The translations under genes were made by a program, and so were the position numbers. Below the pieces are notes generated by a model, which saw only the letters and a program-made list of their open reading frames with translations, was not told where the DNA came from and ran no database searches. Below are positions 17,032 to 17,468 of a stretch of DNA of 64,000 nt, piece by piece. The stretch is from Escherichia coli O127:H6 str. E2348/69 (GTDB lineage: Bacteria; Pseudomonadota; Gammaproteobacteria; Enterobacterales; Enterobacteriaceae). The DNA lies in the NCBI RefSeq assembly GCF_000026545.1, contig NC_011601.1. The stretch is one strand, 5' to 3'. Every line of letters starts with the position of its first letter. The first letter of the stretch is position 1.

Positions 17032-17334
17032 ATGAGCGATAAGCAGACTGAAAAGACCATTCAACTGGATACCCCCATCAAGCGCGGTAAAACAGAAATC
17101 ACCGAAATTGTGCTGCGTAAACCGCAGTCCGGTGCGCTGCGCGGTACACGCCTGCAGGCCATTATGGATATGGATGTAAACGCGATGATGACCGTGATCC
17201 CCCGCATCTCCAGTCCGGCACTGACTGCACAGGAAATTGCAGAGATGGACCCGGCAGATCTCACTGCCATGTCGGTTGAGGTTGTCACTTTTTTGTTGAA
17301 GAAGTCGGTGCTTGCCGGTTTACCGACAGCCTGA
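17032..17334 (+). CDS. E: tail assembly chaperone E (P2 gpE-like)
   Basis: 100 aa, precedes tape measure gene. Confidence 0.8.
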   Translation: MSDKQTEKTIQLDTPIKRGKTEITEIVLRKPQSGALRGTRLQAIMDMDVNAMMTVIPRISSPALTAQEIAEMDPADLTAMSVEVVTFLLKKSVLAGLPTA

Positions 17335-17468
17335 CGGTTGACGATCTGGTGGCAGATATCGCCACCATTTTTCACTGGCCGCCATCCGTTACTGACGTTA
17401 TGCCGCTGACCGAAGTGCTGGAATGGCGGTATAAAGCGATTCAGAGAAGCGGGGCCAACGATGAGTGA
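17032..17468 (+). CDS. E+E': E+E' fusion produced by -1 programmed ribosomal frameshift
   Basis: Slippery heptamer T_TTT_TTG at 17289-17295 in the E frame; the -1 frame stays open to TGA 17466-17468, overlapping the T start. Confidence 0.6.
17289..17295 (+). other. -1 frameshift slippery sequence TTTTTTG
   Basis: In-frame codons TTT TTG; same heptamer type as used by the P2 E/E' chaperone pair. Confidence 0.6.

What the first reader, a model, noticed from the sequence alone, without database searches (positions are those of the whole stretch)
17281..17468. Programmed -1 frameshift site for the E/E' tail chaperone pair
Seen in sequence: the heptamer T TTT TTG (17289-17295) sits in the E reading frame as codons TTT TTG. 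Shifting to -1 at this point gives an open frame that extends past the E stop (17332-17334) to TGA at 17466-17468, overlapping the start of the tape measure gene. Established knowledge: P2 and most tailed phages make a longer chaperone by -1 frameshifting at this position upstream of the tape measure gene, and P2 uses a TTTTTTG-type site.
Basis: partly seen in the sequence, partly recalled or inferred. Interest (0 to 1): 0.3.

Follow-up and report, generated by a model that had tools for sequence, protein, structure and literature searches.

The report
P2-type E/E' tail chaperone frameshift site
This is the well-known programmed -1 ribosomal frameshift site that lets P2-like phages make a short and a long tail-assembly chaperone from one gene; it sits here in a P2-like prophage of E. 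coli E2348/69 and is ordinary.

Summary
T TTT TTG (17289-17295) lies in the reading frame of a 100-aa gene E (17032-17334). The -1 frame is open from 17280 to a TGA at 17466-17468. That stop overlaps the tape-measure start (ATG 17461) by 8 nt.

- E matches Pfam Phage_TAC_7, and that match ends at the slip-site codon.
- The -1 product matches Phage_P2_GpE.
- The reconstructed 145-aa fusion aligns end to end with P2 gpE+E' (49% identity), whose GenBank record marks a -1 frameshift at the same TTTTTTG.
- In 16 diverse relatives and 80 IMG/VR loci, E' is always in the -1 frame. A canonical X XXY YYZ heptamer always sits at the homologous place, mostly TTTTTTG.
- Third-codon-position variation switches from the E frame to the E' frame across the overlap.
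- No conserved downstream RNA structure was found, as reported for P2.

The sequence pattern alone is only mildly improbable (3.8% of codon shuffles); homology and conservation decide the case. RefSeq annotates E' as a separate 39-aa GTG-initiated gene, which is probably a misannotation.

Verdict: already known biology, low interest. In passing, this prophage is rearranged. A 4.8-kb baseplate block is inverted between hix-like sites, and genes S and H are truncated.

The parts
17032..17334 (+). Gene E (100 aa), the short tail assembly chaperone made by standard translation
   Evidence: ORF found. Pfam Phage_TAC_7 matches residues 9-88, E = 1e-18. RefSeq names it 'phage tail assembly protein' WP_001281009.1.
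17289..17295 (+). Slippery heptamer T TTT TTG, the site of the -1 tandem tRNA slip (P site UUU, A site UUG)
   Evidence: In the E frame. The T6 run is the only contiguous invariant block in a 12-sequence DNA alignment with 60% mean column identity. It sits at the same position as the annotated P2 site. All 80 IMG/VR relatives carry TTTTTTG or TTTTTTA there.
17280..17334 (+). Overlap window in which both frames are open; it is dual-coding from 17295
   Evidence: The -1 frame has TGA at 17277-17279. There are no substitutions against SEN8 over 17295-17333, although the flanks differ by about 15%. Entropy is low at all three codon positions over 17289-17336.
17295..17468 (+). E' coding segment in the -1 frame (57 codons plus TGA). 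The full product E+E' is join(17032..17295,17295..17468), 145 aa
   Evidence: Translation. Pfam Phage_P2_GpE, E = 5e-19. Substitutions fall on third positions of this frame: 11 of 18 against SEN8 and 13 of 19 against a Klebsiella phage. The fusion aligns end to end with P2 gpE+E' and 13 others.
17349..17468 (+). The 39-aa GTG-initiated ORF that public annotation calls 'GpE family phage tail protein'; it is most likely only the C-terminal part of E+E', not a separate gene
   Evidence: Annotated this way. The start codon is not conserved: the aligned residue is A, I, W or I in Ralstonia, Mannheimia, Vibrio and Acidovorax relatives. The conserved (V/I)(D/E)D motif lies upstream of it in the -1 frame.
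17461..20538 (+). Tape measure gene T; its start overlaps the E' stop by 8 nt (ATGAGTGA)
   Evidence: ORF. TIGR01760 tape_meas_TP901, 3.5e-92. The ATGAGT(G/A)A junction recurs in P2, PSP3, SEN8, ENT90 and the Klebsiella phage ST11-VIM1phi8.4; the 8-nt overlap was also checked on the P2 coordinates.
16462..16977 (+). Tail tube gene FII, the upstream neighbour (context)
   Evidence: Pfam Phage_tube, 4.8e-60.
15280..16452 (+). Tail sheath gene FI, first gene of the FI-FII-E-T-U-D operon (context)
   Evidence: ORF. Annotated 'phage tail sheath protein' in identical E. coli records.

Best explanation
This is the orthologue of the bacteriophage P2 gpE / gpE+E' programmed -1 ribosomal frameshift, in a P2-like (Peduoviridae) prophage of E. 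coli O127:H6 E2348/69.

Most ribosomes translating E (17032-17334) terminate at TGA 17332 and make the 100-aa chaperone E. A minority slip back one base when tRNA-Phe sits on UUU (17290-92) in the P site and tRNA-Leu on UUG (17293-95) in the A site. They re-pair on UUU UUU (17289-94) and continue from 17295 in the -1 frame to TGA 17466. This yields the 145-aa E+E', which shares residues 1-88 with E.

By analogy with lambda gpG/gpGT, the shared E part binds the tape-measure protein T. The E' extension recruits tube or sheath subunits. The fixed E:E+E' ratio is set by slip efficiency.

Shown here: the sequence anatomy, homology of both parts, synteny, conservation of frame and heptamer, and coding-type selection in the -1 frame. 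Inferred from P2 and lambda experiments: that the slip actually happens, its efficiency (P2 reported 2-3 times lambda's), and the chaperone roles.
For: - Anatomy is exact.
- Pfam Phage_TAC_7 covers E residues 9-88 and ends at the slip codon. Phage_P2_GpE matches the -1 product.
- tblastn of the fusion finds 425 phage records; in 388 one matched place covers at least 80% of the fusion, and in 56 of the 60 records listed that place is two pieces, the one-piece matches covering at most 61%.
- P2 record AF063097 annotates gpE, gpE+E' (join) and the frameshift site. My reconstruction reproduces the published 91 and 142 aa.
- In 16 relatives from gamma-, beta- and alpha-proteobacterial hosts, E' is always in the -1 frame with an in-frame heptamer at the homologous place: TTTTTTG in 11, plus TTTTTTC, TTTTTTT, CCCTTTC, GGGAAAG and AAATTTT.
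- All 80 IMG/VR loci have E' in -1 and T TTT TT(G/A).
- T6 is the only invariant block in DNA alignment A1.
- The fusion alignment has invariant residues on both sides of the junction.
- Third-position substitution bias switches from the E frame to the E' frame across the overlap.
- The AF2 model of the fusion is confident (pLDDT 89.6, pTM 0.80), with one helix (74-92) running through the junction.
- Literature.
Against: - There is no direct evidence of frameshifting at this locus (no proteomics or ribosome profiling).
- The pattern alone is only mildly improbable (3.8% of shuffles).
- No conserved stimulatory RNA element was detected, so efficiency cannot be predicted.
- The host prophage is rearranged, with truncated S and H genes. 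The site may no longer serve virion production in this strain.
Confidence: 0.93

Rival explanations
1. E' is a separate small gene. It would be translated on its own from GTG 17349, by direct initiation or by re-initiation after the E stop 15 nt upstream, to give a 39-aa protein. This is how RefSeq/PGAP and most phage records annotate it.
For: An ORF with a GTG start exists at 17349-17468. It is annotated 'GpE family phage tail protein' in E. coli and phage records. The Pfam PF06528 model begins exactly at that codon.
Against: - No Shine-Dalgarno-like sequence precedes 17349 (direct reading of the sequence: CGGTTGACGATCTG GTG).
- The aligned codon is not a start codon in 4 of 15 relatives (A, I, W, I).
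- The -1 frame upstream of it, back to the heptamer, is open in all 96 relatives. It encodes a conserved (V/I)(D/E)D motif and a predicted helix that begins before the GTG.
- In P2 the reading frame is annotated as a -1 extension of gpE (literature quoted).
Confidence: 0.04
2. The frame change is made at the RNA level. RNA polymerase would slip on the T6 run and insert one extra U in a fraction of transcripts, with normal translation afterwards.
For: The site is a homopolymeric run (T6), and the run is invariant in most relatives.
Against: - Six residues is short for efficient transcriptional slippage (general knowledge; typically 8-9 or more).
- Homologous sites in relatives are non-homopolymeric but still canonical tandem-slip heptamers in the correct frame: C CCT TTC, G GGA AAG, A AAT TTT. 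This fits ribosomal re-pairing, not polymerase stuttering.
- The run is always phased as X XXY YYZ in the E frame in all 96 relatives.
Confidence: 0.02
3. The site is an intact relic. The sequence is a true E/E' frameshift cassette, but in this strain the prophage is defective, so the cassette is no longer used to build phage tails.
For: - The block 9738-14509 (H N-terminus, I, J, W, V plus a cargo ORF) is inverted relative to intact relatives.
- S lacks its C-terminus and H is cut; the H C-terminus and G segment is absent.
Against: - The E/E' region is 100% identical to copies in many other E. coli genomes and 99% identical to the predicted prophage record Escherichia phage 500465-1 and to Klebsiella phage KP12, so it shows no decay.
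- This rival concerns current use, not the identity or mechanism of the site.
Confidence: 0.3

Closest known systems
Bacteriophage P2 gpE / gpE+E' (-1 frameshift in the FETUD tail operon; Christie et al. 2002, as quoted in PMC3091744 and annotated in GenBank AF063097)
   Same: - Same gene order: FI-FII-E-(E')-T-U-D.
- Same heptamer TTTTTTG at the homologous codon.
- E' lies in the -1 frame.
- Same 8-nt overlap of the E' stop with the T start.
- Both Pfam domains are present.
- The fusion aligns over 96% of its length.
   Different: - Only about 49% amino-acid identity.
- E is 100 aa against 91, and the fusion is 145 aa against 142.
- The E tail after the slip site is 12 codons against 6.
- The host element belongs to the Wadgaonvirus/Felsduovirus-like branch of Peduoviridae, not Peduovirus.
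Lambda gpG / gpGT and the conserved tail-assembly-chaperone frameshift of long-tailed phages (Levin 1993; Xu, Hendrix, Duda 2004, 2013, 2014, as summarised in PMC5009743)
   Same: - Two overlapping ORFs between the major tail/tube gene and the tape-measure gene.
[quoted passage not shown]
- Short and long chaperones made in a fixed ratio.
   Different: - No detectable sequence similarity to lambda G/T.
- Different heptamer (lambda uses G GGA AAG, from my own knowledge).
- P2-type efficiency is reported as 2-3 times higher.
- The tail is contractile, so the partner of E' may be tube and/or sheath.
E. coli dnaX (tau/gamma) -1 frameshift
   Same: A tandem-slip X XXY YYZ heptamer read by E. coli ribosomes.
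   Different: dnaX depends on an upstream Shine-Dalgarno-like element and a downstream hairpin (my own knowledge). Here no conserved downstream structure was found. The upstream GAGG (17278-17281, 7 nt before the heptamer) shows no constraint beyond coding.

Membership tests
P2 gpE / gpE+E' tail assembly chaperone pair | The upstream ORF is homologous to gpE (Pfam PF10109 Phage_TAC_7) | tested here: met
   E = 1e-18, 67.5 bits against a cut-off of 25; residues 9-88 cover profile positions 1-78 of 79.
P2 gpE / gpE+E' tail assembly chaperone pair | The -1 frame extension is homologous to E' (Pfam PF06528 Phage_P2_GpE) | tested here: met
   E = 5e-19, 67.9 bits against a cut-off of 23. 59% identity to P2 E' by tblastn.
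P2 gpE / gpE+E' tail assembly chaperone pair | Located between the tail tube gene (FII) and the tape-measure gene (T), with the E' end overlapping the T start | tested here: met
   FII is Phage_tube at 4.8e-60. T is TIGR01760 at 3.5e-92. The 8-nt overlap ATGAGTGA matches P2.
P2 gpE / gpE+E' tail assembly chaperone pair | An in-frame X XXY YYZ slippery heptamer (TTTTTTG in P2) lies inside the two-frame overlap at the homologous position | tested here: met
   It is the only such heptamer in 17280-17334. The P2 frameshift site annotation is adjacent to the same heptamer.
P2 gpE / gpE+E' tail assembly chaperone pair | E' lacks its own conserved initiation site, and the -1 frame is conserved from the slip site onward | tested here: met
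   The GTG 17349 position is not a start codon in 4 of 15 relatives. Conserved residues lie upstream of it. The -1 frame is open in all 96 relatives.
P2 gpE / gpE+E' tail assembly chaperone pair | The fusion protein is actually produced (about 10% in P2), and both E and E+E' are essential for tail assembly | not testable with these tools
   This needs a reporter assay, mass spectrometry or genetics. It is known only for P2 itself (literature quoted).
Conserved tail-assembly-chaperone (G/GT-type) frameshift of long-tailed phages | The chaperone has the tail-assembly-chaperone fold | tested here: inconclusive
dnaX-type stimulated -1 frameshift | A conserved downstream stem-loop 5-9 nt after the heptamer | tested here: not met
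   The local hairpin at 17304-17335 folds at -13.5 kcal/mol with z = -0.98. The P2 equivalent gives z = 0.09. RNAalifold predicts 0 pairs across 10 relatives. This agrees with the literature.
Transcriptional slippage recoding | A long homopolymeric run is required at the site in all members | tested here: not met
   The run is only T6. Relatives carry CCCTTTC, GGGAAAG and AAATTTT at the homologous place.

The most novel reading that the evidence does not exclude
The clade to which this prophage belongs (Wadgaonvirus/Felsduovirus-like) may have a cis-acting modulator of frameshift efficiency that P2 lacks. One candidate is the hairpin starting 8 nt downstream of the heptamer (17304-17335). Another is the strong hairpin plus U-run inside E' (17347-17367 plus TTTTT), which could pause or terminate transcription before the tape-measure gene. 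Either would tune the E : E+E' : T ratios. The near-invariance of 17289-17336 in 66 distinct clade sequences is explained by dual coding, but dual coding does not exclude such an element.
Probability: 0.08. Interest if true: 0.25.

Novelty: already known. Interest (0 to 1): 0.08.

Why it matters
The biology is textbook: P2 gpE/gpE+E' and the conserved chaperone frameshift of long-tailed phages. The practical value is for annotation. In about 1,000 of 5,426 complete E. coli genomes, and in most phage records examined, the E' segment is annotated as a free-standing 39-aa 'GpE family phage tail protein' rather than as the frameshift product join(17032..17295,17295..17468). Recognising the site gives the correct 145-aa protein. 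No open question becomes newly testable.

Tried and rejected
- **Downstream stimulatory RNA structure.** Single-sequence folds of 50-120 nt after the heptamer gave z-scores of -0.98, -2.88 and -1.31 for the window, 0.09 for P2 and -1.28 for phiCTX. RNAalifold on 10 relatives predicted no pairs. Rejected as a conserved feature.
- **Upstream Shine-Dalgarno-like GAGG (17278-17281).** It is present as (G/A)AGGT in 8 of 12 relatives. However, zero third-position entropy also occurs at other two-fold codons nearby, and the 7-nt spacing is shorter than in dnaX. Not supported.
- **Chance.** The census and codon shuffles show the pattern alone is weak evidence, so the argument rests on homology.
- **Sequence search of the PDB.** No hit. 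The Foldseek PDB search also found no hit.
- **NCBIfam.** No model matches E or E'.
- **The Christie 2002 paper.** PMC135442 is not held, so its content is cited second-hand through PMC3091744 and the GenBank record.
- **PADLOC and Pfam on the neighbouring 393-aa cargo ORF.** Nothing scored above cut-off.

Full report
**Observation.** Gene E runs from ATG 17032 to TGA 17332-17334 (100 aa). TTTTTTG occupies 17289-17295, and the E frame reads it as ACT TTT TTG, a canonical X XXY YYZ tandem-slip heptamer. Re-reading from 17295 in the -1 frame gives 57 sense codons ending at TGA 17466-17468. The next gene starts at ATG 17461, so the two overlap by 8 nt (ATGAGTGA). The -1 frame is closed by TGA at 17277-17279. 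Any shift into it must therefore happen between 17280 and 17334, and the only in-frame heptamer there is TTTTTTG.

**Is it more than chance?** On pattern alone, only mildly.
- ORFs of at least 100 aa in the window hold 67 in-frame X XXY YYZ heptamers. Six of them are followed by a -1 frame that runs at least 20 codons past the stop.
- TTTTTTG occurs 10 times on the plus strand.
- 3.8% of codon-shuffled E genes give a heptamer from which the true downstream -1 frame is reached.

The decisive evidence is comparative, as set out below.

**What it is.**
- *Domains.* E matches Pfam Phage_TAC_7 ('tail assembly chaperone proteins E, or 41 or 14') at E = 1e-18. The match covers residues 9-88 and ends at the Leu codon of the heptamer. 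The -1 product matches Phage_P2_GpE at 5e-19.
- *Neighbours.* These are the tail sheath, the tail tube (Phage_tube, 4.8e-60), the tape measure (TIGR01760, 3.5e-92), gpU (2e-44) and gpD. This is the P2 FI-FII-E-T-U-D operon.
- *Distribution.* tblastn of the reconstructed 145-aa fusion finds 425 phage records. In 388 of them one matched place covers at least 80% of the fusion. In 56 of the 60 records listed that place is two pieces, as expected for two frames; the four one-piece matches cover only one part (at most 61%).
- *P2 itself.* Record AF063097 annotates gpE, gpE+E' (a joined CDS, 'shares amino terminus with gpE; -1 frameshift; essential tail protein') and a 'site of -1 translational frameshift' next to the same TTTTTTG. 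My reconstruction gives 91 and 142 aa for P2, the published sizes.

**Conservation.**
- *Diverse relatives.* I examined 16 relatives, mostly from gamma- and beta-proteobacterial hosts plus a Zymomonas (alphaproteobacterial) plasmid record: E. coli, Salmonella, Klebsiella, Erwinia, Pseudomonas, Burkholderia, Ralstonia, Mannheimia, Vibrio, Acidovorax and Zymomonas. E' is in the -1 frame in every case, and an in-frame slippery heptamer sits at the homologous place. It is T TTT TTG in 11, with T TTT TTC, T TTT TTT, C CCT TTC, G GGA AAG and A AAT TTT in the others.
- *IMG/VR loci.* All 80 loci have E' in -1, with T TTT TTG (73) or T TTT TTA (7).
- *DNA alignment.* In a 12-sequence alignment with 60% mean column identity, the T6 run is the only contiguous invariant block.
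- *Protein alignment.* The fusion proteins align end to end, with invariant residues on both sides of the junction: L36, R37, G38, R58, D76 | D109, E128, W132, R133, A136, R139.
- *Substitution pattern.* Past the E stop, differences from SEN8 (11 of 18) and from a Klebsiella phage (13 of 19) fall on third positions of the E' frame. Upstream of the heptamer they fall on third positions of the E frame (31 of 42).
- *Entropy profile.* Over 66 distinct clade sequences, the profile shows the same switch of frame. There is a flat, low-entropy stretch over 17289-17336, where both frames code.

**Mechanism.** The best explanation is a ribosomal tandem -1 slip. tRNA-Phe on UUU and tRNA-Leu on UUG re-pair on UUU UUU, and decoding resumes at GUU (17295). 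This gives E (100 aa) and E+E' (145 aa) in a ratio fixed by slip efficiency.
- The non-homopolymeric heptamers in relatives argue against transcriptional slippage.
- No conserved stimulatory structure exists. PMC3091744 reports the same for P2 and Burkholderia phages, citing Xu et al. 2004.
- By analogy with lambda gpG/gpGT, the shared part would coat the tape-measure protein and the extension would recruit tube subunits. P2-type efficiency is reported as 2-3 times lambda's (PMC5009743).
- These functional steps are inferred, not shown here.
- An AlphaFold2 model of the fusion is confident (pLDDT 89.6, pTM 0.80), with one helix (residues 74-92) running straight through the junction.

**Rivals.**
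- *E' as an independent gene.* The public annotation treats E' as an independent 39-aa GTG-initiated gene. This is unlikely. There is no Shine-Dalgarno sequence upstream. The start codon is absent in 4 of 15 relatives. Conserved residues and a predicted helix begin upstream of it in the -1 frame.
- *An unused relic.* A different caveat is that the cassette may be idle in this strain, because the prophage is rearranged (see the Context paragraph that follows). That does not change what the site is.

**Context.** The window is from E. coli O127:H6 E2348/69: a 5.2-kb stretch including rearrangement junctions is 100% identical to three assemblies of that strain. The E/E' segment itself is 100% identical in many E. 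coli genomes. It is found in 997 of 5,426 complete genomes.

**Verdict.** This is already known biology, with value only for annotation.

Noticed in passing
window 9737-14509 (junctions at 9737-9747 and 14499-14509): A 4.8-kb block is inverted relative to intact relatives (NCTC11121; predicted prophage record 500465-1). It holds the tail-fibre H N-terminus and genes I, J, W and V on the minus strand, plus an AT-rich cargo ORF. An 11-nt inverted core (TAAACGTAGGT and its complement) flanks it, lying within hix/gix-like sites next to the DNA invertase gene (14526-15137). Gene S (9369-) loses its C-terminus, H is cut at the crossover site, and the usual H C-terminus/G/G' invertible segment is missing. 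This looks like an aberrant invertase-mediated inversion plus deletion, and the prophage is probably defective. Twelve other E. coli genomes carry the same block as one piece but with the query's flanking sequences matching elsewhere in the record; in the one inspected (NCTC11121) it is inverted relative to its flanks compared with the window. PMC4272514 reports invertible loci in P2-like prophages of this strain.
   Followed up: partly
window 13272-14453 (+): This is a 393-aa ORF (annotated as 384 aa, WP_228337576.1, hypothetical) in a 1.3-kb island of GC 0.33, against about 0.55 for the prophage. In intact relatives it is inserted between phage genes S and V. It has no Pfam hit above cut-off (a weak tRNA-synt_1e hit at 1.8e-4, below the gathering score) and no PADLOC hit. 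It may be a moron or an anti-phage cargo gene of unknown function.
   Followed up: partly
window 17349-17468: RefSeq/PGAP and many phage records annotate the E' segment as a separate 39-aa 'GpE family phage tail protein' starting at GTG, with no frameshift join. About 1,000 complete E. coli genomes carry this segment, and all 12 records listed carry that annotation. It appears to be a systematic annotation artefact.
   Followed up: yes
window 17347-17372: A terminator-like hairpin (TGGTGGC AGATATC GCCACCA, 7 bp) is followed by TTTTT. It lies inside the E' coding sequence, about 90 nt before the tape-measure start. It encodes the most conserved E' motif (ADIAxIFHW). The P2 sequence does not form the hairpin. 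It may be chance: 5 terminator-like sites were found against 2.9 +/- 1.9 expected.
   Followed up: partly
window 20520-20526: An in-frame G GGG GGA heptamer lies 4 codons before the tape-measure stop. From it the -1 frame is the gpU frame and stays open through all of U (164 codons). It is probably just a Gly-Gly dipeptide next to an ATGA gene overlap. Conservation was not checked.
   Followed up: no
window 16978-17031: The FII-E intergenic region contains a GC-rich inverted repeat (GGCGCGG gata CCGCGCC, about 16990-17007) with no U-run after it. A Mannheimia relative annotates a rho-independent terminator at the equivalent spot. It may be a partial attenuator or an RNA-stability element between the abundant tube gene and the low-abundance chaperone genes.
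   Followed up: no
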